From an uncultured Candidatus Saccharibacteria bacterium (GTDB lineage Bacteria; Patescibacteriota; Minisyncoccia; UBA6257; JAGOQP01): a stretch of DNA of 64,000 nt. Position numbers and translations under genes: made by a program. The notes beneath the pieces are model-generated. The model did no database searches. It had not been told where the DNA came from and saw nothing but the letters and a program-made list of their open reading frames with translations. This document shows positions 1 through 55,509 of the stretch, one piece after another. Position 1 is the stretch's first letter. Each line of letters begins with the position of its first letter. The DNA is taken from the NCBI GenBank assembly GCA_964420205.1, contig CAYQSO010000002.1, forward strand, positions 7,765 through 71,764, in the 5' to 3' direction.

Positions 1-861
1 ACCTACTATCTCGTAGTAAACTGTCATACCATCGAAAAGAAACGGATAAATTTTATCAGCAGTTTCTTTCCATACATCAGAATCATAAAAATGAGAAATC
101 TTCCTACTATTAAAATATTCATTTTTAATAACTCTTCTAGAACTATATAGCATACCATATTCTGAATCAATTACATTTATTTTTAATAATTTTAATAATT
201 TTTCTAATAAATTTAATCGCTTCTTAACTAATACTTTTCCTACTATAGCAGATGTTCCGTGATACTTCTCAGTAATTGATATAATATCATCCGGTTTTAA
301 TTTAAATATGTTTTTACCAAGCTGATCCGTATCATAATGTAATCTAAACTGTCCGTCTAATATTTTACTTTCTAATTTTTCACCTTGCGCTTTTTTACCT
401 TTACTAAATCCCGAAACATTTCTTTTAATAACATATTTTTTACATATATTAACCTTATTTATTTCATTAAACTCTTGCCCAACCTCTAATTTATCTTTTA
501 AAGACTCATCAATAAAATCTAATGAATCTAATTCTAAAAATAATCCATTCGAAGCATGTCCTCTAAATTTAACAGCCTTAATCCTACCATTATCTTCAAA
601 ATATCCTGGCTTCTCTGCTTCAGGGTTTATATTTTTCTCTTTATGTCTATATAAGTTATTATTCTTAAGAAATTTATTTGATAACTTACACTCAACGGGA
701 AAATAAATACCCATATCTCCTACTTTAGTATCCTTAGATACTATAACCAAATTACCGAAGATATTTGCATGTTGTACATTATCACAATTATCTAATAAGA
801 TAACCTTAGTTATTTGAACAACAGTTCCACAATAATTATTATTTGTTAATTTTAAATCCAT
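1..861 (-). CDS. RNA ligase, 5'-truncated by window edge (Rnl5/Rnl2-type nucleotidyltransferase with N-terminal OB-like module)
   Basis: My own translation of the minus strand from the ATG at 859..861 (not in the ORF track) gives MDLKLTNNNYCGTVVQITKV...ITEKYHGTSAIVGKV... The KxHGTS sequence is the adenylation motif I of Rnl2/Rnl5 (DraRnl-type) ligases, preceded by about 190 aa of OB-like sequence. The ORF runs off the window start. Confidence 0.5.
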   Translation of the reverse strand, partial: MDLKLTNNNYCGTVVQITKVILLDNCDNVQHANIFGNLVIVSKDTKVGDMGIYFPVECKLSNKFLKNNNLYRHKEKNINPEAEKPGYFEDNGRIKAVKFRGHASNGLFLELDSLDFIDESLKDKLEVGQEFNEINKVNICKKYVIKRNVSGFSKGKKAQGEKLESKILDGQFRLHYDTDQLGKNIFKLKPDDIISITEKYHGTSAIVGKVLVKKRLNLLEKLLKLLKINVIDSEYGMLYSSRRVIKNEYFNSRKISHFYDSDVWKETADKIYPFLFDGMTVYYEIVG

Positions 862-976
862 ATTAAACTACATTTCCTTTTAACTCATTACACACTTTAC
901 ACATTGTCTGGTAATTACCCATATAATTCTTAATTTGCACTTGTTCCATTTTTTTCCATTTTTTCTATTCCCTTCC

Positions 977-2655: not shown

Positions 2656-2844
2656 CTATTGTCTTAGTTTATAAATTTCTGCTTTTGCTTTATTTGCAAG
2701 TGTTACTCCTGTCATATGTTTTACCGGTCTTCCAGTCGTACCGCAAACACTGTTCCGAAGCTTATCTTGGTAAAACACATAATAAGATAATAAACCACAA
2801 CCTTGCCTGTCTTCGTAAGGATAACTTATTAACTTCTTTCCCAT
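2656..2844 (-). CDS. hypothetical small protein
   Basis: 62-aa ORF of non-low-complexity composition in line with flanking minus-strand genes; a GA-rich stretch precedes its start. Confidence 0.3.
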   Translation of the reverse strand: MGKKLISYPYEDRQGCGLLSYYVFYQDKLRNSVCGTTGRPVKHMTGVTLANKAKAEIYKLRQ

Positions 2845-5572: not shown

Positions 5573-5891
5573 TACTATTTTCCACTATTTAATATTACTA
5601 TAAATTAAAACACAGGTTAAAAGACTTGAACTCTTACTAAACGGGTTGGAGCCGTTTGTGCTACCGATTACACCAAACCTGCAAAATAAAACAGTAGTTT
5701 TTCATCAATACGGAACTATAAAACTACCAAAAATAGTCAGCGATTCTTTAACTAGTATTATTCGCTTAGGAACTTTGTTCAAAGTCTTAACAACCTTTAT
5801 CTTGTTAAGCACTTATCTAGAACAGGGAGAAACACTACCGTCTATTAATATTATAATAGCAAATTAAATATACTATGTCAAGCCTAAATTT

Positions 5892-6556: not shown

Positions 6557-9500
6557 CTAACGTATGGGGCATACCCCATTTTCACAATCACTACCTAAAT
6601 CATCATCTAAATTATATTGTTTTTCATATTTAGCTATCAATTCGGGTGTTATTTTACCAAATTGTTTATTTAACTTATTATATTCTTCTTCTGTAATTGC
6701 TTCATAAGGGGCTAAAGGGTATTTAGCATCATACAAAGGTAAAAAAGATATTCCAACAAAATCATCCCAATTCTCATAAACCCAATCTATTACACCTGCC
6801 CATTCATTATCTCGAACAGTAACCGTGATAGATGTGTTATGGTCTGTGTAATTTCTCATGAACATTTTATAAGTTTCTAATTGTTCTATTGCACTAATAT
6901 CATATTTATTTTTACCTTCGGGTGACTTTACATAAAAATCTATTACATTAGTATCACAAGTTTCAGGGTCCTGTCCTACTTCAGGTGATATATTATATCC
7001 CAATTCTTCTGCTACTTTTAATAAAGGGTCCCCTGAATTAATTCGCACTCTTCTAATATAGTAAGGGGAGTGTGAATGATGAACACCCGGAGATATAGTG
7101 GGAAGTAAACTAAGTGTTCCAGAAGGTTTAATTGTAGTGACTAACTTAGGGGTATTTCTTCCTAGGGAATTTGCTATTTTAGTTGCTTCCGTACGTGCTG
7201 TTTCTCTTAGGAGTTTTAAAATAGATACTTGGTTCTCTTCCGACTTATCGTAGAGTAAATTCACTGCGTCTTGCCACCCACTTAAAGCTACCCCTAGTAA
7301 CATATGTTCTTCTTGGACTTTTTTCCATTCTGGTAACTCAATATTTACACAAGCCATTCTATACGAAGCACGTGTAAACGTCCTAACAGCATTTAATATT
7401 TCTTCATTAAGCTCCCCATCTTTTACAAAAGATTTTACATTAATCTCTACTAAATTACAAAATCCTTTAGAAGGTAAAAGTATCTCACAATTATGAACCA
7501 TAAAACCATTTACTATGCCCCAATGAGATAAAGGTTCTTCGAAATCAAAAACATCATGCTCCCCTATATGAGAAATATCTTCTATCGTAACAGTATTATA
7601 GTCACGTATTGAATCATTTTTCTTACAGTAAGACTGAAAAATCAAGCATTTACCTTTTAAATCCTTTGCTTTGCAATTTGAACCATCCTCAAGCATAAAA
7701 ATATGGTCTTCTGTACATTTTATAATTCTATTATTAGACATTTTTAACCTAATACAAGGTTTACGACCAGTAAACCAAACTTTGCCTTGTGATATATTTC
7801 CATCAGCATTTATTATATCTATTTGCTTCTCATTCAGTTCTTTAAAAGTTTTATAACCTTTTGATGTCAATAATTTCATATCCCCCGTAAAACAACAGGG
7901 ATTTAGCCCTTCCATAGTAGGGAGTCTACGTTGAGCCTCTTGTTTATTAATAAAGCCAGGTTCACCTGTAGTTTTTATACTGTTAAATATTTCTACCAAC
8001 TCTTCTTTCGACGGTCTTTTATTGAATAGAATACTATTGTTGCTCGATACCCTATGTGTTTTGTTTGGGTCAGATACCCACGCACCATCTTCATTTTGAT
8101 AGTAAATACCTTGTTTAGCCAGTCTCACGTCTTCATCGTCTTTATCAAATAAACAAACTAATGCAGTCCTTCTTACACCCCCAACCTGAACTGCGCATCC
8201 TACTAAATTACATATATCTAAAATGTCTATAGTTTTTAAACTACCATTAGACCTACTTACAATACCTATAATTTTCTCAAACAATATTTTAAGGGGGACA
8301 TGCCCACTTGCATAACCACCAAAAGTTTTTAAGGGGGCGCCTTCAGGTCTAACATTATCGAAGTCTACTAATATAGTAGATAATAGAGGGTTCTCTAAAC
8401 ATTTGAACAAGTACCTTAAGGCACCTACCCAACCCTCCTTAGAATCCCCTACAACAATAGTAGCGACGTTACCTGTGGTTTGTAATGTACTAAACTCTTC
8501 TTTATCTATTTTTTCAGAATATTCTTTAGATAATATTCTAATACTTGTATTTAAATTAGAAAAAGCACTAATATTTTCTATTACATCTAAAAAACCAACC
8601 CCACAACCTAATAAGAGGAGATAAAATAACTCACAGATATCTTCTGTATTATCTATTTTTGTAAAAGAACAATTTTTAGTCAATATATTATTCGCCAGAG
8701 TAAATGATTCTGTTTCTGGTTCAACAACACACCAAACATCTTCTATAATATCTGTTTCTTCTACACCTTTCACAACCCACGAAGGTTCAAAACTTGTTTC
8801 TTTTACACTTGACTTATGTTTACTATTCAAAAAGAAATCATCTGGTACATGTTTTGAATATAAATTCAATCTATAATTCGGAGCGTATTCTCCAGTATAC
8901 GGTGAAAGTTCTCTATTTAATTCAACTTTTCCACAATCAATACCTAATATAGAAAATATACTTTTAATATGGTCTAATGTGTTTTTATTAGAATTACTTA
9001 TTGAGATATTACTCTTGTAATAAGACCCATCTGTGGCAAATAAGCCCATCACAAACCCCATTAAATATTCCACATTAGAGTTCAGAGATGGGAGATTTTT
9101 CCATGTATTTGGTAGGCCATATATCACTTTCTGGTTATATTTTCCAGCGGTACATTGAGACCCTGTTGTAAAATATAATGCAAGTTCCTGCTTATTATCT
9201 ACTAAATGAACCCTACAATGGTTCATTTTTTTATTATATGTCCCATCTCCAAAAACCATACCATGTTGTATCCCAACAGAACACGGAACTATATTAGTTT
9301 GTTCATATCTTCTTTTCTCTCTCAAAATATCGCCATTTTTTAACTCATTAGTAGTCTTAACAATAAATTTTTTCTCAGACTTGTACCTTTTTACATACCA
9401 CCTATGATTTTCTGTAGTGTAAATAATATCTTCTCTTTTACCTCTACCAACAATCAACTTTACCAATTTAGACTTTCCGAAATTTCTAATAGTAGCAGTT

Positions 9501-9928
9501 TTCCACCCACCAGTAGAGGATAATATATCTACGTTATCACCATCACTAAAATCATTAAATGACTTTATTCCTTGCTTTGTTATAAATTCTGTATCTGATT
9601 TAAAACAGTTAAAATTACTAGAGGCATATTTTTTAGAGCTCTCTGTTCCACCTACCCATAATGTTCTGCCGCTTAAAAATCCTTTAAGGTTAAATATCGT
9701 ATCAAATAATTGCTCTGCTTCTCTTATAGAAACTCCATGAACTAACGAACAATTATATTCTACTGCTCTCCTAACTGTCTCCCACCAATACTCTCTTCTA
9801 TTTTGTTCTGGTAAATATCTTGAATAAGTTCTATAATAAACAAACTCTCCCAATGAAGTCATCGGTGGATTCACATCTTTATATTTACTTATAAATTCTT
9901 CACTTAATAACATTAATTTATGCCTCAC
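6557..9928 (-). CDS. nrdJ: adenosylcobalamin-dependent class II ribonucleotide reductase precursor, interrupted by two inteins
   Basis: N-terminal EFVYYRTYSRYLPEQNRREYWWETVRR is the class II RNR signature; NPC...EI thiyl-radical site; 1123 aa. About 450 aa is accounted for by two Hint/intein insertions. Confidence 0.85.
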   Translation of the reverse strand: MRHKLMLLSEEFISKYKDVNPPMTSLGEFVYYRTYSRYLPEQNRREYWWETVRRAVEYNCSLVHGVSIREAEQLFDTIFNLKGFLSGRTLWVGGTESSKKYASSNFNCFKSDTEFITKQGIKSFNDFSDGDNVDILSSTGGWKTATIRNFGKSKLVKLIVGRGKREDIIYTTENHRWYVKRYKSEKKFIVKTTNELKNGDILREKRRYEQTNIVPCSVGIQHGMVFGDGTYNKKMNHCRVHLVDNKQELALYFTTGSQCTAGKYNQKVIYGLPNTWKNLPSLNSNVEYLMGFVMGLFATDGSYYKSNISISNSNKNTLDHIKSIFSILGIDCGKVELNRELSPYTGEYAPNYRLNLYSKHVPDDFFLNSKHKSSVKETSFEPSWVVKGVEETDIIEDVWCVVEPETESFTLANNILTKNCSFTKIDNTEDICELFYLLLLGCGVGFLDVIENISAFSNLNTSIRILSKEYSEKIDKEEFSTLQTTGNVATIVVGDSKEGWVGALRYLFKCLENPLLSTILVDFDNVRPEGAPLKTFGGYASGHVPLKILFEKIIGIVSRSNGSLKTIDILDICNLVGCAVQVGGVRRTALVCLFDKDDEDVRLAKQGIYYQNEDGAWVSDPNKTHRVSSNNSILFNKRPSKEELVEIFNSIKTTGEPGFINKQEAQRRLPTMEGLNPCCFTGDMKLLTSKGYKTFKELNEKQIDIINADGNISQGKVWFTGRKPCIRLKMSNNRIIKCTEDHIFMLEDGSNCKAKDLKGKCLIFQSYCKKNDSIRDYNTVTIEDISHIGEHDVFDFEEPLSHWGIVNGFMVHNCEILLPSKGFCNLVEINVKSFVKDGELNEEILNAVRTFTRASYRMACVNIELPEWKKVQEEHMLLGVALSGWQDAVNLLYDKSEENQVSILKLLRETARTEATKIANSLGRNTPKLVTTIKPSGTLSLLPTISPGVHHSHSPYYIRRVRINSGDPLLKVAEELGYNISPEVGQDPETCDTNVIDFYVKSPEGKNKYDISAIEQLETYKMFMRNYTDHNTSITVTVRDNEWAGVIDWVYENWDDFVGISFLPLYDAKYPLAPYEAITEEEYNKLNKQFGKITPELIAKYEKQYNLDDDLGSDCENGVCPIR
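7490..7894 (-). mobile_element. intein 2 in nrdJ (about 135-aa mini-intein at the NPC active site)
   Basis: NPC|CFTGDMKLL...GFMVHN|CEILLP: N-terminal Cys, C-terminal HN, +1 Cys, and no endonuclease domain. Coordinates by residue counting (aa 679..813). Confidence 0.6.
8672..9607 (-). mobile_element. intein 1 in nrdJ (about 312 aa, LAGLIDADG homing-endonuclease type)
   Basis: Starts with Cys right after NFN (CFKSDTEF...) and ends ...ILTKN before the CSF extein. LAGLIDADG-like blocks HGMVFGDGTY and LMGFVMGLFATDGSY. Coordinates come from residue counting (aa 108..419). Confidence 0.65.
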
Positions 9929-11977: not shown

Positions 11978-12382
11978 TTAACTTTTTTCGAACTTCTCTT
12001 TCAATTCAAGGTACTTTTTATAATCTTCTTCATCTTTCTTTTGGTTAACAATCTTATGTCTATCCAAGCGTTCTTTCTGTTTCTTTTTATAAGATTCTTT
12101 TATTTCTTCTATATAAGACTGTAAAGCATTTTCATCCCAAATAAATTCTTCTTTGAATTTTTTATAAGTATTATCACCACACTCTACAAAAACCTCTCGA
12201 TTACTTATCTCGTACTCCGACTCTTCTACTAAGAAAGCCTCCATGTCATAAGCGTAATCCCAGTCATCAAAAATACTGTATACCACATCAAGTTCTATTA
12301 GAGTATTCCCGATGTCACAAATTCGCTGTTTTATTTTATTTTCCTGTTTTCTAAACTCATAGTATTCTTCTTTTGTAATCAT
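11978..12382 (-). CDS. hypothetical acidic protein
   Basis: 134-aa Glu/Asp/Lys-rich ORF with no diagnostic motif. Confidence 0.3.
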   Translation of the reverse strand: MITKEEYYEFRKQENKIKQRICDIGNTLIELDVVYSIFDDWDYAYDMEAFLVEESEYEISNREVFVECGDNTYKKFKEEFIWDENALQSYIEEIKESYKKKQKERLDRHKIVNQKKDEEDYKKYLELKEKFEKS

Positions 12383-12591
12383 CTACTCTGGTACCCCATC
12401 ATCTTAGACAAACAACTTAAACAAATTTTATCGTGGTACGCTGAACATGTCATATTTACCTTCTTCTTACCACATACACCACATTTTTCACCAAATAAAA
12501 AATCTTTTACAGGCTCTAAAAACTTATGTATTCTATACGTCCAATGAAAACGTACTTTACACGGATAAATTGTATAATCTTCTCGTTTCAT
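12379..12591 (-). CDS. hypothetical zinc-ribbon protein
   Basis: CGVCGKK...C..C..C; 70 aa; starts only 34 nt downstream of the tnpB stop. Confidence 0.3.
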   Translation of the reverse strand: MKREDYTIYPCKVRFHWTYRIHKFLEPVKDFLFGEKCGVCGKKKVNMTCSAYHDKICLSCLSKMMGYQSR

Positions 12592-12625
12592 TATCTTCTG
12601 CTCCGTAATTTGTATTCAAACATAA

Positions 12626-13960
12626 TCATTCTAAAACAATTACATTTGAAGTTACTAATTCGCTTTTTCTTGCTTCATTGTACTCTCTTTTGTTGTTGCT
12701 TGCAACAACTACTTGAGTTTGTTTTAACACTCCACAAGCTTTACTAACTCTAACAGAATTAAAGTTAGTTCCCGACAAGCCATCGGTACATGTATTCCTT
12801 ACTTCATTAAGTAGGATATAATCTTTACAGTTCTTGAGATTAACTGCTGCATTGTAGTCTCTTTGGTGCTCTGCACCACAATTACTACATTTCCAGTTTC
12901 TATCTTTTAATTTTAGTTCTTTATTCTTCTCTCCACAGCTACTACATAACTTACTACTTGGAAAGAATTTATTTACTTCTCTTACTTCTATATTATGTTT
13001 TGTACACTTCTGTACAAGAACTTGTTTAAAATAGTAAGGTTTATTTTGAAGAATAGTTTTAGAAAGATGTTTGTTCCTAACCATTCCTTTAATATTTAAG
13101 TTTTCAACTGTAACATATCTAGGTTTCCCCTTAACTATGTTATCTATACATTTATTAGTATAAGAGTTTCTTATTTGTTCTAACCTGTAGTACACTTTTT
13201 CTACTCTTAGTTTATTTTTAATATAATTGTTACTTACTTTATCTCTCTTTTCTTTCTTCTTAGCTTCGTACTTTCTACTTAAAGCTCTCTGTTCTCTTCT
13301 TAATTTCTTTTCTAACTTTTTAACTCTAGTAGTTTTATTAATGTTTTTGTATTCTTCTTTGTTAGAACATGTTAAGAAAGTACTTATTCCCCAATCAATA
13401 CCAATACCTTCATTACAATTCTTATTATCTTTACTACTCTCTTCATCTGTTATAACAGAGATGAAATATCTATTAGATCTCTTAGTTATTACTCCACTTA
13501 TTATTTTATTGTTTCCTGTAGGGAGGTATCCTTTCTCTTTCAGAGAAACCTCTCCGAACATAGGAATTTTAATTTTATGCCTAGAACATCTTATAGGTCT
13601 GTTTGCCTCTACTCTAACAAAATAAACTCCTGTCTTGTCTTTAGAAGCTTTTTTAAATTTAGGAAATCCTTTCTTTGATTTAAATGCTTTTTGGTAAGTT
13701 GAATTACAATTATCTATAGTCTTTCTAAGAGCTTTACTCCCTGCTTCTTTCAACCAATGTTTATCTTCGTTCTCTTTTAAATAAACATTATTAAACCATT
13801 TAGAGAACTCGTAGTTATTAAGATATTTTTCTCCTGCGGAGTAACGTTCTTTATTAACAGAAATAAAAAGATTCCAGACAAATCTACATGCAGAAATTGT
13901 AAGCTTGTAAAGCTTCTCCTGTTCTTTATTTAGTTTTACTTCTGTCTTGTAAGCTTTCAT
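12626..13960 (-). CDS. tnpB: TnpB (IS200/IS605-family OrfB; OMEGA RNA-guided RuvC nuclease), copy 1
   Basis: Canonical MKAYKTEVKLNKEQEKL N-terminus, C-terminal zinc finger CSSCGEKN...CSNCGAEHQRDYNAAVNL (RuvC-III). The track ORF extends to 14086, but Met43 at 13958..13960 is the likely start, judged by alignment to copy 2. Confidence 0.85.
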   Translation of the reverse strand: MKAYKTEVKLNKEQEKLYKLTISACRFVWNLFISVNKERYSAGEKYLNNYEFSKWFNNVYLKENEDKHWLKEAGSKALRKTIDNCNSTYQKAFKSKKGFPKFKKASKDKTGVYFVRVEANRPIRCSRHKIKIPMFGEVSLKEKGYLPTGNNKIISGVITKRSNRYFISVITDEESSKDNKNCNEGIGIDWGISTFLTCSNKEEYKNINKTTRVKKLEKKLRREQRALSRKYEAKKKEKRDKVSNNYIKNKLRVEKVYYRLEQIRNSYTNKCIDNIVKGKPRYVTVENLNIKGMVRNKHLSKTILQNKPYYFKQVLVQKCTKHNIEVREVNKFFPSSKLCSSCGEKNKELKLKDRNWKCSNCGAEHQRDYNAAVNLKNCKDYILLNEVRNTCTDGLSGTNFNSVRVSKACGVLKQTQVVVASNNKREYNEARKSELVTSNVIVLE

Positions 13961-13993
13961 TGATAAAAAGAAAAGTTCTAAGAAATTATTTTG

Positions 13994-14057
13994 TAAGCAG
14001 ATACAATTCTTCCTAGAACTAAAATTAATATAAATCTTATTTAATTGTATCTGCTTA
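13994..14057. repeat. perfect 15-bp inverted repeat (taagcagatacaatt / aattgtatctgctta) with 34-nt spacer in the presumed IS left end
   Basis: Read directly from sequence (13994..14008 and 14043..14057); lies between the real tnpB start and the over-extended track start. Confidence 0.7.
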
Positions 14058-14175
14058 ATATTATAATTTAACTTAAAATTTTTCATTTAGATTTCCCTGT
14101 AAAGGTATTAAAAATGAATATGTTTTACATATATTTGATTATGTTATGGGAGACTGTTCATTATCTTCTCTCCTC

Positions 14176-38353: not shown

Positions 38354-41300
38354 TTAGAGCGGTTTCGGTATTAAAGTAGTACGTGATTCATCATCTACCC
38401 ATTTAAAATCGAATATTTGTCCAAAACGATACCCCAGTCCAATTGTAGCTTTAATAGGCAAAGGCCAATCTGGTAAGCTAAAATACATTATATCTTCTAT
38501 TAACCTAGTGTATTCTACTATTTTATCTAAATCAACATAAAGGTTCACTTCGTCATGTATTGTCGAAAGAAAAGCACACTCTTTTTCTTTTTCGGATATA
38601 CTAAATATTTTCTGATACATCTTCTTAAGAACTATACGCATAATATCCCCCGCACTTCCCTGGATTATGTGGCTGCTGACTCTTCTCTCAGCAGCAGATA
38701 TCATATTATTTGACTCTCTTTCACCTTTCCTAGGGTCTTCTGCTTCTCTTTCTATCCTCTCAGCCATATTTACATATGACCCGAAGCGTCTGGGCCTCCC
38801 ACAGAACGTAAATGTAGTTCCGGCATTATTCCACATCTTATTTATTTCATTTTGTCTCCATTGCATAGCCCCAAAAAAAGCTTCACAATAGGCATCATAA
38901 AGAGCTGTTGCGTGTTCTAACGGGATTCCAGAATTCTTAGATATGGAATCAGAATGACCACTATAATTTATAGCAAAATTCACAGCCTTTGCTATTTTTC
39001 GTAGCCCCTTGTTATAATTTTCTCTACCCCATATAGCGTACGCTGTCGCAGTATGTGGATCAATACCTTCCCTGAAATTTGATAACTTTACACTATCTTT
39101 ACTGTAATTAGTAAGGAGAACGTCTTCCTGTGAACTGTAATCCACACTCAAAATAATCTTTTTCTTACTATTAACCTTTTTAAATGATGGAACTACTACA
39201 CAATTTCTAATATTAAAATTAGGGGAGAACCCTTCTACTAAATAACAGTCTTCTGAGTCAGTGTGGTTTTTAATGTCTTCATCAGACATTAAATCAAAAC
39301 ACCAACCTAATATATTACCCTCTTTCTCAGATTTGTATGCTTTATAAATCGCTCCTGACGGTTTACTAAGATTCTGCGCATTAAGATCTATATAATAGGG
39401 GTTCTTAGTCTTCTTATCACTCTTACTCCCATTACCACTTGCAAATCTCCCTGAAGCGGTCCCAAAAAGTTTATATCTCATCCTACACTCATCTACCTTA
39501 GTCAGTTTATCAATGTAACTATTGATAGCCTTATTCATAGTAGAGTACTTCTGTATCTTCTTTAAAATACTTAACTTTTCATTTTCTTTTTTAAGCATTA
39601 TTTTTAATATTTTTAAAAAATATTTTCTATTGAGAATTCTACTTCCTTTTTTAAGCGGAACTAGTTTCTTATTTTTATTCTTTCTTTTCGCTCTGCTCAA
39701 TACTCTTATAGTATTGTTATTCAACTGCATTACTTGGAAATAGTCACTCCCATGTGCTTCTAGTATTTTATATAAATAAAACATATCTACGTGTTCTCTT
39801 ATATGTAATTCTGAAGCACAAAATCCTTTTGTAAAATAACCTTCTTCATTCTTTTCTAATTTTTCTATAATACCTCGTAAATCTGTTAAATTCTTAGAAA
39901 ATATTCTTGTACCATCTTTTTTACCAAAAGAAATCTGATCTGTATCTGTCCTTGCCCCAGTATCTATATTCTTAGATGCCATAGCATTTTTAAACTCTTT
40001 AGAAGAGGTACTAAGGTTGAATATTCCTATATCAAAATAATTATATATTTCCTCCTTAAGCTGAGTTATTACTTCGATAGCTTTTTCTTTATATTTTTTA
40101 GCTTCTTCTTTATCTATATAAAGTTTAGTATGTCCATAATAATCAATCCAATACCTTATAAGAGTGTTGTCTGATTTTATAACGTCAAATTTTTTACCGT
40201 TAAACTCTACTATATTGGGGTAAGTACTTATTAGTTTTTTAACTTTCGGATATAAATAGTAAAAAAGTGCCAAGCAGCAACATGAGTCTGCACAATTACC
40301 CGAAACCAAGACTTTACCATTTCTTCTAGTTATTAAAGTGTGATTTGGTACTTCTGCACAATAAACCACCCCACTATATGGAACAATTTCTCTCTGGTAT
40401 TTCTTGTATCTAACACTTTTCTGTCTTTGTGTGTACACACTATAAATTTGGTGCACATTTTCTCTTTTTATTACACGTCCTCTAATAACACAGTCTTTTT
40501 TAGGTGGTGCTTTTAAAGTTAATATACTAGTCCTACCACCCAACATTAATAGCTCTTGTAACTGATTAGCCATTTTGATAGATGTAGTATAAAAAACCCA
40601 CGCTGAGTCAGTTTTTCTAGACCCATCACAATAATTAAAATATTTTAGAAACTCATTTATACAGTACGAATCCATTTTAAAAATTTCAGGTGGAATATAC
40701 TTTTTCTGAGCCTTACCTTCCATATAAGGTTTTATCCAATTATAAAACTTTTTATTATAACAAACCCAGCTATTCCCTTTTTCTCTTTTGTTAGGGCGAA
40801 ACCCCATATTAGTTTCCATTAACATATTTTCTAACTCTTTTTTGAATTTATCGCTACAAACAGCCAGCCCTATGTGATAACAAACTTGCTTGTCGCCTCT
40901 TTGAACAATCCAACCATCTGCCAACAACGCACCTGTTAATCTGGCTAATTGTACAGGGGTTAAATTAACATTCTTACTAAAATGAAAAGAATCCTTCCCA
41001 CTACCTTTCTTCTCTGTGGGAGCTTTATAACCGCTTTCTTCAACTAAAAGATCTTTTGCCTGTTTGAATACCCATTCTTTATGTTGTGCTCGCTTAACTA
41101 GCATATTATGGTTGGGGGTAACACAAAAATCAAGATGTTTACTTTTATAAGAAATCATCTCTCCTTTATATTCATACGCATATAACCTTAGAGGACGCTG
41201 GTACTCTAATTCATCTTTTTCCACATTTACAGTAGCTAAAAGGTCTTCTCCATTATAATCTTTCCACATTACCCAACCATTTTCAGTCAATACTTCAGTC

Positions 41301-42319
41301 TGATCATCGTGGCATGCATAAATAACTGTGCTCCTATCGTAGGGGCATACATACTTGAATTCACCCGGAAATTCTAACATAGTACGTCCTAGATACAATT
41401 TAGCACTTAACTTAAGTCCTGCCATTTTTGACTCCGCATCAAAAAGATACGGAAGTATCATAGAGTCAAAAAAGTTAACTTTTTCAATAGAATAACCTTC
41501 TTTCTTATACATATTAAGGTCAAATTCAGCATTATGGATTACTACTAACTTTGCACTTGTTAAAGCTTTATATAAAATATCAAGGGACTTTTTTGCACTT
41601 CTCTCATTTTCTTCTTCTGTTAAAACATAACTAGAAACTTCCATTTCAGATAAATGCTTTTCAAAGTCTCCTATCATACAGTCTATACTACCAAGTTTAG
41701 CTTCTACTACTTCTTTTTCTAAATCTTTAGAATTTTCAAGAAAGTTTTCTTTATCTTGTTTTAACCCATCTATTAATTTTTGCGTCTCTTCTCTTTGTCT
41801 CTGTAATTCTAATTGCTCCCTTACTTCTTTGCTACATATATTTCCATTATGTAATGAATACTCATACGTCTTTACCGTAGTCTGACTTACTCTTCCTGTT
41901 TTAGTATATACTACATTTCCTTCTTCATCTAATTTAGGAACTTTTTCTGAACCCACTTCTTTTTTTCGCATATGTCTCAAAGGGCAATAAATCCCCGAAT
42001 TGTCGTCCAGTGAAAGAGAGAACCCTACAATGTAATCACCACCTTCTTCTCGAGGTGAACTGTTCAGTCCAGTAGTTTCAGTGTCAAACCCGATTATCTT
42101 ATCTTTACAAAGTTCTACGAATTCTTCCAACTCTTCTAAAGTATTAACAAGTTTATAGTCCCCTAAATAAATAAGATTCCCTTCCTCATCGTATTTATGA
42201 AACTTATTATCAAACTCTCTATAACCATGTACAGGTATATATTTGTACAACGTTTTACTGCTTTTTTTCTTTTGTTCTACCTTTTGTTGAACATATTTTT
42301 TCTTATAATCTTTTGTCAT
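38354..42319 (-). CDS. family A DNA polymerase (3'-5' exo plus polymerase domains) precursor containing an intein
   Basis: Exo I IGFDTETTGL; polymerase motif A LSVDYSSQE, motif B RKIAKAVNFAINYS, motif C LSTIHDEVN. The likely true start is MTKDYKK, 12 codons inside the track ORF (which begins at 42355). Confidence 0.85.
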   Translation of the reverse strand: MTKDYKKKYVQQKVEQKKKSSKTLYKYIPVHGYREFDNKFHKYDEEGNLIYLGDYKLVNTLEELEEFVELCKDKIIGFDTETTGLNSSPREEGGDYIVGFSLSLDDNSGIYCPLRHMRKKEVGSEKVPKLDEEGNVVYTKTGRVSQTTVKTYEYSLHNGNICSKEVREQLELQRQREETQKLIDGLKQDKENFLENSKDLEKEVVEAKLGSIDCMIGDFEKHLSEMEVSSYVLTEEENERSAKKSLDILYKALTSAKLVVIHNAEFDLNMYKKEGYSIEKVNFFDSMILPYLFDAESKMAGLKLSAKLYLGRTMLEFPGEFKYVCPYDRSTVIYACHDDQTEVLTENGWVMWKDYNGEDLLATVNVEKDELEYQRPLRLYAYEYKGEMISYKSKHLDFCVTPNHNMLVKRAQHKEWVFKQAKDLLVEESGYKAPTEKKGSGKDSFHFSKNVNLTPVQLARLTGALLADGWIVQRGDKQVCYHIGLAVCSDKFKKELENMLMETNMGFRPNKREKGNSWVCYNKKFYNWIKPYMEGKAQKKYIPPEIFKMDSYCINEFLKYFNYCDGSRKTDSAWVFYTTSIKMANQLQELLMLGGRTSILTLKAPPKKDCVIRGRVIKRENVHQIYSVYTQRQKSVRYKKYQREIVPYSGVVYCAEVPNHTLITRRNGKVLVSGNCADSCCCLALFYYLYPKVKKLISTYPNIVEFNGKKFDVIKSDNTLIRYWIDYYGHTKLYIDKEEAKKYKEKAIEVITQLKEEIYNYFDIGIFNLSTSSKEFKNAMASKNIDTGARTDTDQISFGKKDGTRIFSKNLTDLRGIIEKLEKNEEGYFTKGFCASELHIREHVDMFYLYKILEAHGSDYFQVMQLNNNTIRVLSRAKRKNKNKKLVPLKKGSRILNRKYFLKILKIMLKKENEKLSILKKIQKYSTMNKAINSYIDKLTKVDECRMRYKLFGTASGRFASGNGSKSDKKTKNPYYIDLNAQNLSKPSGAIYKAYKSEKEGNILGWCFDLMSDEDIKNHTDSEDCYLVEGFSPNFNIRNCVVVPSFKKVNSKKKIILSVDYSSQEDVLLTNYSKDSVKLSNFREGIDPHTATAYAIWGRENYNKGLRKIAKAVNFAINYSGHSDSISKNSGIPLEHATALYDAYCEAFFGAMQWRQNEINKMWNNAGTTFTFCGRPRRFGSYVNMAERIEREAEDPRKGERESNNMISAAERRVSSHIIQGSAGDIMRIVLKKMYQKIFSISEKEKECAFLSTIHDEVNLYVDLDKIVEYTRLIEDIMYFSLPDWPLPIKATIGLGYRFGQIFDFKWVDDESRTTLIPKPL
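40295..41314 (-). mobile_element. intein in DNA polymerase (about 340 aa, LAGLIDADG type) inserted in the Exo III motif (YA|C..D)
   Basis: VIYA|CHDDQTEVLTENGW...LARLTGALLADGW...FLKYFNYCDGS...VPNHTLITRRNGKVLVSGN|CADSCCCLALFYYL; the extein junction restores the Y-x-x-x-D exo motif. Coordinates by residue counting (aa 348..687). Confidence 0.6.
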
Positions 42320-42644
42320 TATTAAAATTAACTCCTGTACTAGATAAACCAACATTAGTGAAATTAAAATCTTTGTACTTCCACCAATCTTTTTTCTTCA
42401 TCATCTTTTTAACTTTTCTTGGGTACTTATCCCACCTACAGTACTTCCCGATACCTAATATGTAATTAAATATTATTAATTTTACTCTATTTTCTATATT
42501 AGTTTGAATTTCTCCCACACATTCGCCATAGGGCTCTCTTACAGCAGAAGTAGCAGTATCTCTTGACTCACATAAATATTGAGACGATATTCCTGTTGCC
42601 ATAACAATGTCTTGTCTTAATTTATATAATCTCTCTTCTATCAT
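42303..42644 (-). CDS. hypothetical protein
   Basis: 113-aa ORF upstream of the polymerase. Confidence 0.3.
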   Translation of the reverse strand: MIEERLYKLRQDIVMATGISSQYLCESRDTATSAVREPYGECVGEIQTNIENRVKLIIFNYILGIGKYCRWDKYPRKVKKMMKKKDWWKYKDFNFTNVGLSSTGVNFNNDKRL

Positions 42645-53339: not shown

Positions 53340-54810
53340 TATTGTTCTCCTTACCTATTGACTTTTAATCTGTTGAACTAAAGACTCTATATACAAATCA
53401 AACTGCTCCAAATTAGTAACTTTAAACATAATTTATCCTACTTGAAGTTACTAATTCGCTTTTTCTTGCTTCTCCAGTATACCTGTTAGGTATACAATCG
53501 TACTCTCTTTTATCACCAGAGGCGACTACTTGAGTTTGTTTTAACACTCCACAAGCGTTAATTCCCGACAAGCCATCGGTATTTACACTATTTAACAATG
53601 TGTATTCTTTACAATTCTTAAGGTTTACTGCTGCATTGTAGTCTCTCTGGTGCTCTGCACCACAACTACTACATTTCCAGTTCCTATCTTTTAATCTTAA
53701 CATATTATTTTTAGTATTACAAATACTACATAATTTAGATGAAGGGTAAAATCTACCTACTTCTCTTACTTCTATATTATGTTTAGTACACTTTTGTGTT
53801 AGAGTTTGTTTAAAGTAATAAGGTTTATTTTGTAGGGTAGCTTTACTTAGATGTCTGTTTTTAACCATTCCTTTTACATTAAGGTTCTCAATAGAAACAA
53901 ATTTAGGTTTCTTCCTAACTATATCATCAATACACTTATTAATGTAGGAATTTCTTATTTGTTCTAACCTATAATGAAGTTTAGAAACTTTATCTTTATT
54001 CTTTATATAATTGTTAGAAACTCTATCTCTTTTCTCTTTTTTCTTGGCCTCGTACTTCCTATTTAAAGCTCTCTGTTGTCTTTTAAGATTTTTTTCTAGC
54101 TTCTTAATCTTAGTAGTCTTATTAATATTTTCGTAACTAGTACTATTAGAACATGTCAAATATGTACTAATCCCCCAGTCAGCACCAATTCCTTCATTAC
54201 AATTCCTGTAATCTCTCGTACTCTCCTCGTATACTATAACAGAGATAAAATACTTACTAGCTCTCTTAGTTATTGCTCCACTTATTATTTTATTAGACTC
54301 TATAGGAAGATATCCTTTTTCTTTTATGTGTATCTCTCCAAACATAGGAACTTTTATCTTGTGTCTCTCACATTTAATAGGTTTATCTAAAGATGCTCTT
54401 ACAAAATATACCCCTGTCTTATCAGTAGAAGCTTTTTTAAATTTAGGAAATCCTTTCTTCTCCTCCATAAATTTAACATAAGTATTATCACAATTCATCA
54501 TTGTCTTCCTAAGAGCTTTACTTCCAGCTTCCTTTAACCACTGTTTATCTTCATTCTCTTTGAGATACTCATTATTGAACCATTTACTAAAGTTGTAGTT
54601 ATTAAGATATTTTTCTCCTACGGAGTATCTTTCTTTATTAACAGAGATAAACAAATTCCAGACAAACCTACAAGCTGAAGTAGTAAGCTTGTAAAGCTTT
54701 TCCTGTTCCTTATTTAATTTTATCTCTGTTCTATAAGCTTTCATTAATGGGACTGTTCTATCTTTTATACTCATCAAATGTGTAAAATAATGTTATTAAA
54801 ATTTAATTTA
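53340..54810 (-). mobile_element. second TnpA-less IS605-family element (boundaries approximate)
   Basis: tnpB copy 2 with a 10-bp inverted repeat aattagtaac/gttactaatt flanking its stop codon (53411..53456) and a 3' flank partly shared with copy 1 (aaacataat). Confidence 0.45.
53422..54744 (-). CDS. tnpB: TnpB (IS200/IS605-family OrfB; OMEGA RNA-guided nuclease), copy 2
   Basis: MKAYRTEIKLNKEQEKLYKLTTSACRFVWNLF N-terminus; CSICNTKNN...CSSCGAEHQRDYNAAVNL C-terminus. Roughly 70 percent identical to copy 1 by eye. The track start at 54777 is 11 codons upstream of the canonical MKAY start. Confidence 0.85.
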   Translation of the reverse strand: MKAYRTEIKLNKEQEKLYKLTTSACRFVWNLFISVNKERYSVGEKYLNNYNFSKWFNNEYLKENEDKQWLKEAGSKALRKTMMNCDNTYVKFMEEKKGFPKFKKASTDKTGVYFVRASLDKPIKCERHKIKVPMFGEIHIKEKGYLPIESNKIISGAITKRASKYFISVIVYEESTRDYRNCNEGIGADWGISTYLTCSNSTSYENINKTTKIKKLEKNLKRQQRALNRKYEAKKKEKRDRVSNNYIKNKDKVSKLHYRLEQIRNSYINKCIDDIVRKKPKFVSIENLNVKGMVKNRHLSKATLQNKPYYFKQTLTQKCTKHNIEVREVGRFYPSSKLCSICNTKNNMLRLKDRNWKCSSCGAEHQRDYNAAVNLKNCKEYTLLNSVNTDGLSGINACGVLKQTQVVASGDKREYDCIPNRYTGEARKSELVTSSRINYV

Positions 54811-55509
54811 GTTTGCTTTTATTTGGCCTATTAAGACGTTAACGTACAAATCAAACTCTACATCCGTCATATTTATTATACTATTTGCATTACCCATTAT
54901 AGCCATCGCAAACTGATTTAATTGTTGCTCCGTCATAGTAAATACTGCTATTGCTAACTGTTCATTAGCTGTTCTTATTTTATTACTTATTTTTACATCC
55001 AGCTCTGTTAAATCATCTACTTTTTGTGTGATCAAATCTCTTATTCTCTCTACCTCAAAAGAATCTATGGAAATTACTTCATCTAAACCTGTATCATAAT
55101 GTTTAATTTTATGTTTCTTTATACTACCGGATTTCATAGCAGTAAGCACAAGATCACTCAATGTTTCTTCAAGGAGATTTAACTTAGCAATAACTTTATA
55201 CCCATCTGCTTTAGTTACCTGTACTGGAAACGATAAAGCTCTATATTCACTTGCTTTTTCTAAATAAAAATTAAGCCCGTTTTCTCTAAGTAATTCTATG
55301 TCTAATAGCTTTTCTCTATAATAAGGGTAATTATCCATTGGTTCATACTCTTTACCATCATCAGGAATTTCAACTAAATTATAAAAAGAGCTATTTTCAC
55401 ATTCTGTATTATTCTTACTATAAATTATACTTAATGTTTCTTTATCTAATATTCTACAACTTTTATACACTATTAAAAACTCCTCTTTGTTGTAAATATA
55501 ATTTCCCAT
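54808..55509 (-). CDS. hypothetical protein
   Basis: 233-aa ORF directly upstream of the tail-fibre genes. Confidence 0.3.
   Translation of the reverse strand: MGNYIYNKEEFLIVYKSCRILDKETLSIIYSKNNTECENSSFYNLVEIPDDGKEYEPMDNYPYYREKLLDIELLRENGLNFYLEKASEYRALSFPVQVTKADGYKVIAKLNLLEETLSDLVLTAMKSGSIKKHKIKHYDTGLDEVISIDSFEVERIRDLITQKVDDLTELDVKISNKIRTANEQLAIAVFTMTEQQLNQFAMAIMGNANSIINMTDVEFDLYVNVLIGQIKAN

What the first reader, a model, noticed from the sequence alone, without database searches (positions are those of the whole stretch)
53340..54810. Second, diverged tnpB copy 40 kb away in direct orientation, with different 3' ends
Copy 2 (53422..54744) is colinear with copy 1 at protein and DNA level but diverges exactly at the last about 6 codons and in the 3' flank (ELVTSNVIVLE* versus ELVTSSRINYV*). 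Only a short aaacataat block downstream is shared. That is what is expected if the two copies carry different omega-RNA guides or right-end junctions. A 10-bp inverted repeat (aattagtaac...gttactaatt) brackets the copy 2 stop codon. Two roughly 1.3-kb direct repeats bracketing the polymerase, helicase and RNR block could also mediate large deletions or rearrangements.
Basis: seen in the sequence. Interest (0 to 1): 0.7.

Follow-up and report, generated by a model that had tools for sequence, protein, structure and literature searches.

The report
Two phage TnpB guide-RNA nuclease modules
The phage carries two old, intact copies of a known transposon-derived RNA-guided DNA cutter (IS607-type TnpB with its RAGATH-18 guide RNA) but no transposase; the "different 3' ends" lie in a variable hairpin loop of the guide-RNA scaffold, and the real guides start about 40 bases further on.

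Summary
Two colinear tnpB genes lie on the minus strand 40.8 kb apart (12626..13960 and 53422..54744), 78.6% identical in DNA and 74% in protein, and their last 6-8 codons differ.

Both are IS607-family TnpB genes whose 3' ends encode a RAGATH-18-type guide RNA (reRNA; Ren et al. 2024). The divergent codons and the 10-bp inverted repeat belong to a long terminal hairpin of the RNA scaffold. Similarity resumes after them and runs to a conserved terminus, ...GGAGCAG, which 10 close relatives and 82 ordinary IS607 loci also have. The guides therefore begin at 12597 (AAGATAATGAAACGAGAAGA) and 53402 (TTTGATTTGTATATAGAGTC).

The window has no tnpA. Both nucleases keep the RuvC triad and are under purifying selection (dN/dS 0.15, dS about 1).

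Three features are unusual:
- The ORF reads through almost the whole scaffold, a trait of a clade found in phage-like contigs.
- Each copy has, upstream of tnpB, a TAM-like (G/T)AGAG followed by exactly the first 11 guide bases.
- Copy 2 sits in the 3' end of a gene and carries a recoded replacement for that end.

Most likely role: TnpA-independent, homing-type selfish nucleases. This is a variant of a known kind.

The parts
53422..54744 (-). tnpB copy 2 (440 aa, from the conserved start MKAYRTEI; the mechanical ORF starts at TTG 54777)
   Evidence: ORF. Pfam HTH_OrfB_IS605 + OrfB_IS605 + Cas12f1-like_TNB. RuvC D/E/D and zinc-ribbon cysteines conserved.
53403..53580 (-). reRNA scaffold of copy 2: 5' flank hairpin, RAGATH-18 core, terminal hairpin, ...GGAGCAG. 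Almost wholly inside the ORF.
   Evidence: nhmmer and alignment with copy 1 and 8 relatives. Covariation in the 5' hairpin and the outer stem.
53463..53555 (-). RAGATH-18 core of copy 2, carrying an extra inserted hairpin
   Evidence: Rfam RF03064, 31.3 bits, E = 0.0016; below the gathering score of 44.9 because of the insertion.
53409..53458 (-). Terminal scaffold hairpin of copy 2.
   Evidence: MFE -15.0 kcal/mol, z = -4.67. The same helix position is seen in the relatives.
53383..53402 (-). Predicted guide of copy 2, TTTGATTTGTATATAGAGTC (a length of 20 nt is assumed)
   Evidence: First bases after the conserved ...GCAG terminus. Unique in the window.
53355..53402 (-). Displaced remnant of a gene 3' end (FDLYIESLVQQIKSQ*), a diverged duplicate of the C-terminus of the gene upstream of copy 2. 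It templates the guide.
   Evidence: Translation and BLOSUM62 test: 0 of 18,596 11-mers from the phage's proteins score as high. Identity by segment 11/11, 2/9, 14/28.
54808..54855 (-). Resident, recoded 3' end of gene 54808..55509 (FDLYVNVLIGQIKAN*). Its first 11 nt (54845..54855) equal guide positions 1-11.
54856..54860 (-). TAM-like TAGAG immediately 5' of the 11-nt partial target of copy 2
   Evidence: Sequence. Compare the AGGAG TAM of ISFba1.
12626..13960 (-). tnpB copy 1 (444 aa, from the conserved start MKAYKTEV; the mechanical ORF starts at ATG 14086)
   Evidence: E = 8.9e-102 to PDB 8iaz_A, assigned here to ISFba1 TnpB. AlphaFold2 core confident.
12598..12787 (-). reRNA scaffold of copy 1. 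It has a 24-nt in-frame hairpin insertion between the 5' flank and RAGATH-18.
12667..12738 (-). RAGATH-18 core of copy 1
   Evidence: Rfam RF03064, 64.7 bits, above the gathering score of 44.9.
12604..12662 (-). Terminal scaffold hairpin of copy 1. It contains the divergent last codons and the stop codon 12626..12628.
   Evidence: MFE -14.7 kcal/mol, z = -2.90.
12578..12597 (-). Predicted guide of copy 1, AAGATAATGAAACGAGAAGA. It covers the spacer, the start codon (12589..12591) and the first codons of gene 12379..12591.
   Evidence: Family-wide position of a start codon just after the right end.
14157..14174 (-). Left partial target of copy 1: AGGAG (14170..14174) overlapping GAGAG (14168..14172), then AAGATAATGAA (14157..14167), which equals guide positions 1-11. 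It lies 207 nt upstream of the tnpB ATG.

Best explanation
Each copy is a tnpA-less IS607-family TnpB module, that is, an RNA-guided RuvC nuclease gene whose 3' part doubles as the template for its RAGATH-18-type guide RNA (reRNA).

The RNA consists of:
- a 5' flank hairpin;
- the RAGATH-18 core;
- a long terminal hairpin with a variable tip;
- a single-stranded ...GAGCAG;
- about 16-20 nt of guide copied from the DNA just beyond the right end.

The two proteins differ at their C-termini because, in this clade, the ORF runs on through the scaffold and stops inside the variable tip of the terminal hairpin.

Likely function (inferred): TnpB plus reRNA cuts DNA that carries a TAM followed by the 20-nt target. 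In this case that DNA would be a related co-infecting phage lacking the module. Recombinational repair from the module-bearing genome then copies the module across (TnpA-independent, non-restorative homing), or the cut simply disables the competitor.

The phage's own DNA would be spared for two reasons. At the right end the target is preceded by GCAG, not a TAM. The TAM-flanked copies upstream of tnpB match only guide positions 1-11.

Shown here: family membership, RNA architecture, right-end position, intact catalytic residues, purifying selection, absence of tnpA, the partial targets and the duplicated gene end. Inferred: expression, RNA processing, TAM identity, cleavage and homing.
For: Protein:
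- Pfam HTH_OrfB_IS605 / OrfB_IS605 / Cas12f1-like_TNB in both copies.
- E = 8.9e-102 to PDB 8iaz_A over residues 1-381. I take this chain to be ISFba1 TnpB because its active-site D and TAM-reading residues fit the paper's numbering with a +3 offset.
- D189 and E286 are invariant and D368 nearly invariant in 40 homologues.
- Core dN/dS is 0.15 at dS 1.05.
- AlphaFold2 pLDDT is high for residues 1-386.

RNA:
- RAGATH-18 scores 64.7 bits in copy 1 and 31.3 bits in copy 2.
- Ren et al. 2024 showed that RAGATH-18 reRNAs guide IS607 TnpB, with a 5' flank, a roughly 64-nt 3' flank and a 20-nt guide.
- All 10 distinct close relatives end in RRRGCAG followed by unrelated DNA.
- 82 ordinary IS607 loci end in ATTTTGAGTRGCAG or close variants.
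- A terminal hairpin starts right after AAxAAG and closes 6 nt before the end in 9 of 10 relatives, with CG/UA and GC/CG exchanges at its base. z-scores range from -1.0 to -7.5.
- The 5' hairpin and the outer RAGATH-18 stem covary.
- Synonymous divergence is halved where the ORF overlaps the RNA (dS 0.47).

Context:
- No tnpA in the window.
- The close relatives sit in phage-like contigs, and one (L186) still has a serine-recombinase tnpA.
- Complete IS607 copies have AGGAG directly left of the left end.
- The guides are unique in the window.
- TnpA-independent homing is described for TnpB in the review PMC13565253.
Against: - No expression or cleavage data exist.
- The RAGATH-18 core of copy 2 falls below Rfam's gathering score because of an extra hairpin inserted near the conserved GAUGAAG motif, so its RNA may be impaired.
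- No recognisable left end or promoter lies upstream of either tnpB.
- No related phage with an intact TAM plus target was found. IMG/VR hits to the guides are chance matches, and the gene flanking copy 2 is an ORFan.
- The TAM is uncertain. The ISFba1 TAM readers N121/N122 are V/E in copy 1 and A/S in copy 2 (my mapping). Copy 2 has TAGAG rather than AGGAG.
Confidence: 0.8

Rival explanations
1. One reading: the scaffold/guide junction is where the last 6-8 codons diverge (after ...ACTTCAA). The guides would then be ATGTAATTG... and GTAGGATAA..., and the downstream similarity would be accidental.
For: The sequences do switch from 31 identical bases to dissimilar ones at 12645 / 53441.
Against: - Similarity resumes after a 10-nt length difference and runs to GGAGCAG.
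- L083 is alignable with copy 1 straight through the 'divergent' block.
- The block is the tip of a hairpin conserved in position in 9 of 10 relatives.
- The family-wide terminus is ...GCAG.
- A junction at TTCAA would leave only 21 nt of 3' flank, against about 64 nt in ISFba1.
Confidence: 0.03
2. The copies are inert relics, that is, stranded IS607 fragments that lost tnpA and the left end and now merely persist, with no present activity.
For: - No tnpA in the window.
- No conserved left end.
- No promoter above chance.
- The copy 2 RNA core is sub-threshold.
- No SD-like sequence directly upstream of either ATG, read by eye.
Against: - Both ORFs are intact after dS of about 1, with dN/dS 0.15.
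- Catalytic and zinc residues are kept.
- The indels seen in the RNA-overlapping region are in frame.
- Scaffold motifs and helices are conserved.
- The frame stays open through the scaffold in 9 of 10 clade members, against 2 of 65 ordinary scaffolds.
Confidence: 0.1
3. The modules are co-opted by the phage. The TnpB/reRNA complex would bind the TAM plus 11-nt partial target upstream of its own gene without cutting. That binding would throttle read-through transcription of tnpB (autoregulation) or serve another regulatory purpose. Alternatively, the complex serves purely as a weapon against competitors.
For: - Both copies, and none of 78 other elements, have an in-register 11-nt match to the guide start next to a (G/T)AGAG upstream of tnpB. 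Controls reach 11 nt or more in 1 of 480 tests.
- Guide positions 12-20 are almost fully mismatched (1/9 and 2/9).
- The guide would pair with the template strand of the transcription unit (inference from the strand of the sites).
Against: - There are only two cases, both in one genome.
- In copy 2 the repeat is the best-kept part of a 48-nt duplicated gene end, so it may be a scar of how the module arrived rather than an operator.
- RuvC is intact, unlike known TnpB-derived repressors (my knowledge of TldR).
- ISFba1 is reported to be very mismatch-sensitive, but binding at 11 nt is untested.
Confidence: 0.07

Closest known systems
ISFba1 TnpB with its RAGATH-18-derived reRNA (IS607 family; Ren et al. 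2024, PMC11061315; PDB 8iaz)
   Same: - Same protein family (E = 8.9e-102, colinear over 381 residues) and the same RuvC triad.
- Same RNA parts: 5' flank hairpin, RAGATH-18 core, a 3' flank with a stem-loop, and a guide taken from the DNA beyond the right end.
- G-rich TAM of the ...GAG type.
   Different: [quoted passage not shown] Here the ORF covers all but the last 22-31 nt of the scaffold and adds a tail of about 58 aa that is predicted to be disordered.
- There is no tnpA next to either copy.
- TAM readers N121/N122 are replaced (my mapping).
- Extra hairpins are inserted in both scaffolds.
Complete IS607 copies in phages, such as ISCbt4-a of Clostridium phage c-st and the element in L186
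   Same: - TnpB of the same family in phage genomes.
- Right end ...GCAG.
- Insertion immediately 3' of AGGAG.
   Different: - Those keep a MerR-resolvase TnpA and a left end with a promoter.
- The window copies have neither.
- The window copies are flanked by AG + 11-nt direct repeats, whereas IS607 is described as making no target duplications.
ISDra2-type TnpB and omega-RNA (IS200/IS605)
   Same: The guide RNA overlaps the 3' end of tnpB, and the guide is the flank beyond the right end. Restorative and homing roles are described.
   Different: - Different RNA family (no RAGATH-18).
- AT-rich TAM.
- Y1 HUH transposase with hairpin ends.
- Only E = 8e-33 to the window protein.
Free-standing homing endonuclease genes of T-even phages (Seg and Mob; intronless homing)
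   Same: - A nuclease gene wedged between phage genes.
- It presumably cuts a related phage's allele while the resident allele is resistant through sequence differences.
- It spreads by recombinational repair (review PMC13565253).
- Copy 2, with a resistant recoded gene end plus a retained sensitive-allele fragment, fits this logic.
   Different: Specificity would come from an RNA guide templated by the retained 48-nt fragment, not from protein-DNA recognition. Nothing here has been tested experimentally.

Membership tests
IS607-family TnpB / RAGATH-18 reRNA nuclease (ISFba1 type) | TnpB domain set (HTH, RuvC/OrfB_IS605, zinc-ribbon TNB) and close homology to ISFba1 TnpB | tested here: met
   Pfam hits in both copies. 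phmmer E = 8.9e-102 to 8iaz_A.
IS607-family TnpB / RAGATH-18 reRNA nuclease (ISFba1 type) | RuvC catalytic D-E-D (ISFba1 D194, E290, D371) | tested here: met
   D189 and E286 invariant and D368 nearly invariant in alignment A2. Present in both copies.
IS607-family TnpB / RAGATH-18 reRNA nuclease (ISFba1 type) | RAGATH-18 RNA motif at the 3' side of tnpB | tested here: met
   Copy 1: 64.7 bits, above the gathering score of 44.9. Copy 2: 31.3 bits, E = 0.0016, full model length but below the gathering score because of an inserted hairpin.
IS607-family TnpB / RAGATH-18 reRNA nuclease (ISFba1 type) | Conserved 5' and 3' flanking RNA motifs ending at a fixed terminus, followed by a variable guide | tested here: met
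   ...RRRGCAG in 10 close relatives and ...GAGTRGCAG (or close variants) in 82 other loci. The flanks after it are unrelated. Terminal hairpin.
IS607-family TnpB / RAGATH-18 reRNA nuclease (ISFba1 type) | reRNA separate from the coding sequence (stated as a family trait by Ren et al.) | tested here: not met
   The stop codons lie 31 nt (copy 1) and 22 nt (copy 2) before the right end, so the scaffold is almost wholly inside the ORF.
IS607-family TnpB / RAGATH-18 reRNA nuclease (ISFba1 type) | TAM 5'-AGGAG or GAGGG next to the target | tested here: inconclusive
   Copy 1: GAGGAGAG precedes the 11-nt partial target. Copy 2: TAGAG. No intact target was found anywhere. The TAM-reading residues differ.
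IS607-family TnpB / RAGATH-18 reRNA nuclease (ISFba1 type) | RNA-guided double-strand DNA cleavage | not testable with these tools
   Needs biochemistry or interference assays.
Autonomous IS607 insertion sequence | Serine-recombinase TnpA (MerR + resolvase) upstream of tnpB | tested here: not met
   tblastn of two TnpA proteins against the whole window gave no hit at E <= 1. The upstream genes are a metallophosphatase homologue and an ORFan.
Autonomous IS607 insertion sequence | Defined left end directly after the TAM; no target-site duplication | tested here: not met
   The upstream regions of the close relatives share no obvious similarity (by eye), and those of the two window copies align no better than shuffles. 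Each window copy is flanked by an AG + 11-nt direct repeat. Complete IS607 copies show AGGAG|LE without such repeats.
IS200/IS605 TnpB / omega-RNA | Y1 (HUH) TnpA, hairpin-forming ends, AT-rich TAM, omega-RNA of that family | tested here: not met
   The RNA is RAGATH-18. The best solved relative is the IS607-type protein, E = 9e-102, against 8e-33 for ISDra2 TnpB.
Free-standing (intronless) homing endonuclease gene | Cuts the allele of a related phage that lacks the gene, resident allele resistant, biased inheritance | not testable with these tools
   Only the anatomy fits: a resistant recoded gene end plus a retained target fragment at copy 2. No sensitive allele is available.

The most novel reading that the evidence does not exclude
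The TAM plus 11-nt seed-only matches upstream of both tnpB genes may be functional self-sites. The nuclease's own guide RNA would dock there without cutting, either to regulate its own read-through transcription or to mark self.

Copy 2 may also show how an RNA-guided nuclease can home into a coding sequence. It carries a recoded, cleavage-resistant replacement for the gene's last 15 codons, and it keeps the sensitive 48-nt original just beyond its right end as the guide template.
Probability: 0.2. Interest if true: 0.75.

Novelty: new variant of a known kind. Interest (0 to 1): 0.45.

Why it matters
For annotation: in this family the guide begins after ...GCAG, not where the protein ends or where paralogues first differ. 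In one clade found in phage-like contigs, the nuclease ORF and almost the entire guide-RNA scaffold occupy the same DNA. This contradicts the published generalisation that IS607 reRNAs are separate from the coding sequence.

For biology: these copies are intact, selected, transposase-free TnpB modules in a phage that also carries inteins. They are good candidates for testing whether TnpB acts as an RNA-guided homing or competitor-killing nuclease between phages. The partial self-targets and the recoded gene-end patch give concrete sites to mutate.

Family-wide, the right ends sit 2-14 nt upstream of a start codon in 60 of 70 cases. This implies that the AGGAG TAM is usually a Shine-Dalgarno sequence.

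Tried and rejected
- Megablast of both 5.5-kb neighbourhoods against GenBank phages: no match. tblastn of the DnaB-like protein: no match. The phage has no close sequenced relative in that collection.
- Single-protein scan of IMG/VR for close TnpB relatives: none.
- DNA pattern scan of JGI metagenomes for the 5' flank hairpin: none.
- GTDB genomes: 518 relatives, the best listed 52% identical on a partial match and 46% on a full-length one. None was recognised as the read-through type, though this was not checked locus by locus.
- Search for empty sites:
  - The upstream gene of copy 2 has no homologue.
  - L172 has a 52%-identical metallophosphatase without tnpB and a similar TAAGAAGATAATAATGAAAGG junction, but it is too diverged to prove the insertion point.
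  - Guide 18-mers in IMG/VR gave 7 hits without a TAM or related context, taken as chance.
- Idea that the roughly 205 nt between the left repeat and the copy 1 ATG is a tnpA remnant: tblastn found nothing meaningful.
- Idea that a short motif (GAACAGTC.CCCAT) shared upstream of both copies marks a common left end: a local alignment of the upstream regions is not better than shuffles (216 of 2000), so it was dropped.
- Idea that flank repeats are a general IS607 feature: rejected. Complete IS607 copies and 78 other elements lack them.
- Promoter and terminator scans: nothing above shuffled expectation.
- Global RNAalifold on the ten scaffolds recovered only two helices, because the loops differ in length. 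The terminal hairpin had to be shown sequence by sequence.
Full report
**1. The observation**

Both genes are on the minus strand. Copy 1 is ORF 12626..14086, with the conserved start MKAYKTEV at 13960. Copy 2 is ORF 53422..54777, with the conserved start MKAYRTEI at 54744.

They align colinearly. Identity is 78.6% over ungapped columns between the ATG and the right end, and 335 identical residues in 452 protein columns. The longest exact run is 34 nt.

The C-termini differ as reported (…ELVTSNVIVLE* and …ELVTSSRINYV*). The 10-bp inverted repeat around the copy 2 stop codon and the shared ATTATGTTT block are also there.

The differences are not confined to the end, however. Synonymous divergence in the core is about 1.05 per site, and several in-frame indels lie upstream. 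After the 'divergent' block the two sequences become similar again, up to GGAGCAG at 12598..12604 and 53403..53409.

**2. What the genes are**

Pfam finds HTH_OrfB_IS605, OrfB_IS605 and the Cas12f1-like zinc-ribbon domain in both copies.

The best solved relative is 8iaz_A (E = 8.9e-102, residues 1-381). I assign this chain to ISFba1 TnpB of the IS607 family, because its active-site D and TAM-reading residues fit the paper's numbering with a +3 offset. ISDra2 TnpB scores only 8e-33.

The RuvC residues D189 and E286 are invariant and D368 nearly invariant in 40 homologues. dN/dS between the two copies is 0.15 in the core. AlphaFold2 models residues 1-386 confidently. Both copies are therefore intact nucleases under selection that diverged long ago, not a recent duplication.

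**3. The RNA**

Rfam finds RAGATH-18 inside the 3' end of copy 1 (12667..12738, 64.7 bits). It finds a full-length but sub-threshold match in copy 2 (53463..53555, 31.3 bits), interrupted by an extra inserted hairpin.

Ren et al. 2024 (PMC11061315) showed that RAGATH-18 is the core of the guide RNA (reRNA) of IS607 TnpB. That RNA has a 5' flank, a 3' flank of about 64 nt and a 20-nt guide, and the TAM is AGGAG or GAGGG.

**4. Where the scaffold ends**

I collected the closest relatives: P0003-P0039, with DNA in L001, L083, L164, L167, L169, L184, L186 and L187. All ten distinct elements share three things:
- the 5' hairpin ACCGATGGCTTGTCGG;
- the RAGATH-18 core and the GAAGCAAGAAAAAG motif;
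- a terminus …AAATTAGGAAGCAG or …GGAGCAG, after which the sequences are unrelated.

Twenty ordinary IS607 loci all have RAGATH-18. In total 82 such loci end in ATTTTGAGTRGCAG or close variants.

Between AAxAAG and the last six bases, nine of the ten relatives fold into one long hairpin with the same base position. Its length varies widely, and the base pairs show CG/UA and GC/CG exchanges. z-scores are -2.9 for copy 1 and -4.7 for copy 2. The 5' hairpin and the outer RAGATH-18 stem covary.

L083 aligns with copy 1 right through that block.

The guides therefore start at 12597 (AAGATAATGAAACGAGAAGA) and 53402 (TTTGATTTGTATATAGAGTC). Each occurs only once in the window.

**5. Variant feature 1: the ORF runs through the scaffold**

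Typical relatives are 384-394 aa and stop before the RNA. [quoted passage not shown]

The closest clade (430-460 aa) reads on through the scaffold. The frame is open to within 35 nt of the right end in 9 of 10 clade members, against 2 of 65 ordinary scaffolds. The indels between the two window copies in this region are in frame.

The added tail (residues 387-444) is predicted to be disordered. There dS drops to 0.47 and dN/dS rises to 0.45. This fits RNA-level rather than protein-level constraint.

L083 uses a different frame across the scaffold: it has a stop in the common frame at scaffold position 51, yet its ORF continues to 7300. So the amino-acid sequence of the tail is probably unimportant.

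All fetched clade members lie in phage-like contexts with genes such as NrdD, DnaB, PolA, GroEL and amidase. None was recognised among the GTDB hits.

**6. Variant feature 2: no transposase**

tblastn with two IS607 TnpA proteins finds nothing in the window. The upstream regions of the relatives share no obvious similarity (by eye). L186 shows that the clade can still carry a MerR-resolvase tnpA.

Complete IS607 copies have AGGAG immediately left of their left end, as in phage c-st ISCbt4-a.

**7. Variant feature 3: partial self-targets and a patch**

Upstream of each tnpB is an in-register copy of exactly the first 11 guide bases, preceded by AG and a TAM-like pentamer:
- Copy 1: GAGGAGAG|AAGATAATGAA at 14157..14174.
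- Copy 2: GTAGAG|TTTGATTTGTA at 54845..54860.

Among 80 distinct elements only these two reach 11 nt. Control offsets reach 11 nt or more in 1 of 480 tests, and other clade members reach at most 7. Guide positions 12-20 match at only 1/9 and 2/9.

For copy 2, the 48 nt after the right end encode FDLYIESLVQQIKSQ*. This is a diverged duplicate of the C-terminus of the upstream gene, FDLYVNVLIGQIKAN*. None of 18,596 11-mers from the phage's proteins scores as high.

So, relative to an uninterrupted allele, the module sits at the TAM|target boundary inside the gene's 3' end. It brings a recoded replacement for the last 15 codons, and the original end survives as the guide template. How this arose is not resolved. 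Candidates are recombination between diverged phage alleles or integration through the 13-nt identity. IS607 itself makes no target duplications.

**8. Likely function**

Transposase-independent ('non-restorative') homing by TnpB is described for plasmids and proposed for phages (PMC13565253).

The anatomy here fits that role. The nucleases are intact. The guides would match module-free alleles. The resident copies are protected either by the lack of a TAM (right end) or by mismatches (left copies). The genome already hosts LAGLIDADG-type intein insertions in its RNR and DNA polymerase genes.

No sensitive allele could be found, and the TAM is uncertain because the TAM-reading residues differ. 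The function therefore remains an inference.

**9. The deletion idea**

The two copies share exact runs of up to 34 nt, so recombination between them is conceivable. It would remove DNA polymerase, helicase, ligase and other genes, so it could only yield defective genomes. This is inference.

**10. Verdict**

These are known machinery (IS607 TnpB with RAGATH-18 reRNA), and relatives are already present in 379 GenBank phage records.

The ORF/scaffold overlap, the seed-only self-targets and the recoded gene-end patch make this a variant of the known kind that merits a targeted experiment. It is not a new class.

Noticed in passing
Loci L003-L163 (family-wide); in the window, 12578..12601: In 60 of 70 distinct IS607/RAGATH-18 right-end flanks, the start codon of an ORF of at least 50 codons lies 2-14 nt (mostly 6-9) after ...GCAG, against 204 of 1400 random positions. 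All five complete IS607 copies have AGGAG just left of the left end. These elements therefore usually sit between a Shine-Dalgarno sequence (which is the TAM) and a start codon. Ren et al. 2024 do not mention this.
   Followed up: partly
window 6557..9928 and 38354..42355 (minus strand): The class II ribonucleotide reductase gene has intein-splicing and LAGLIDADG domain hits, and the family A DNA polymerase gene has a LAGLIDADG hit. The phage thus hosts several kinds of selfish nuclease elements.
   Followed up: no
window 12739..12762 and about 53472..53495 (minus strand): Each copy has its own 24-nt, in-frame hairpin insertion in the scaffold. In copy 1 it lies between the 5' flank and RAGATH-18 (TTTAATTCTGTTAGAGTTAGTAAA). 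In copy 2 it lies next to the GAUGAAG motif (TGTATACCTAACAGGTATACTGGA) and lowers the Rfam score.
   Followed up: partly
L188 (Clostridium phage c-st, ISCbt4-a), 860..875 and 2812..2822: The first 10 nt after the right end (TGGTAATATG) recur in the -10 region of the left-end promoter of the same IS, preceded by ATAG. This may be another partial self-target, or it may be chance.
   Followed up: partly
L083 5915..5935 and 7330..7345: The closest DNA relative of copy 1 has AGGAG|AATAAAT at its left side and GCAG|AATAAAT at its right end. The left copy supplies the last codon and the stop codon of the upstream gene. The 7-mer is AT-rich and occurs three times nearby, so the evidence is weak.
   Followed up: partly
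L172 3735..3770: A related phage contig has a 52%-identical metallophosphatase and no tnpB after it. Its junction reads TAAGAAGATAATAATGAAAGG, resembling the duplicated AGAAGATAATGAA of copy 1. The next gene there is a 436-aa fusion of a zinc-ribbon-like N-terminus, an insert and a dUTPase-like C-terminus (read by eye).
   Followed up: partly
L167 3640..3900: Upstream of a clade member's tnpB, a consensus promoter (TTGACA-17-TATAAT) is followed by about 200 nt that are visibly more GC-rich than their surroundings. This could be a structured RNA.
   Followed up: no
L001 3473..4609: The related 99-kb contig carries a second, unrelated and disrupted tnpB (306 aa plus a 50-aa fragment) 1.4 kb upstream of its intact clade member. 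This suggests repeated TnpB colonisation of this phage group.
   Followed up: no
window 5611..5682 (minus strand): A tRNA gene (Rfam tRNA, 58.7 bits).
   Followed up: no
window, whole: All 54 ORFs of at least 120 aa except 3 short ones are on the minus strand. The plus strand has G 10.7% against C 19.6% (30% G+C), a strong strand asymmetry.
   Followed up: no
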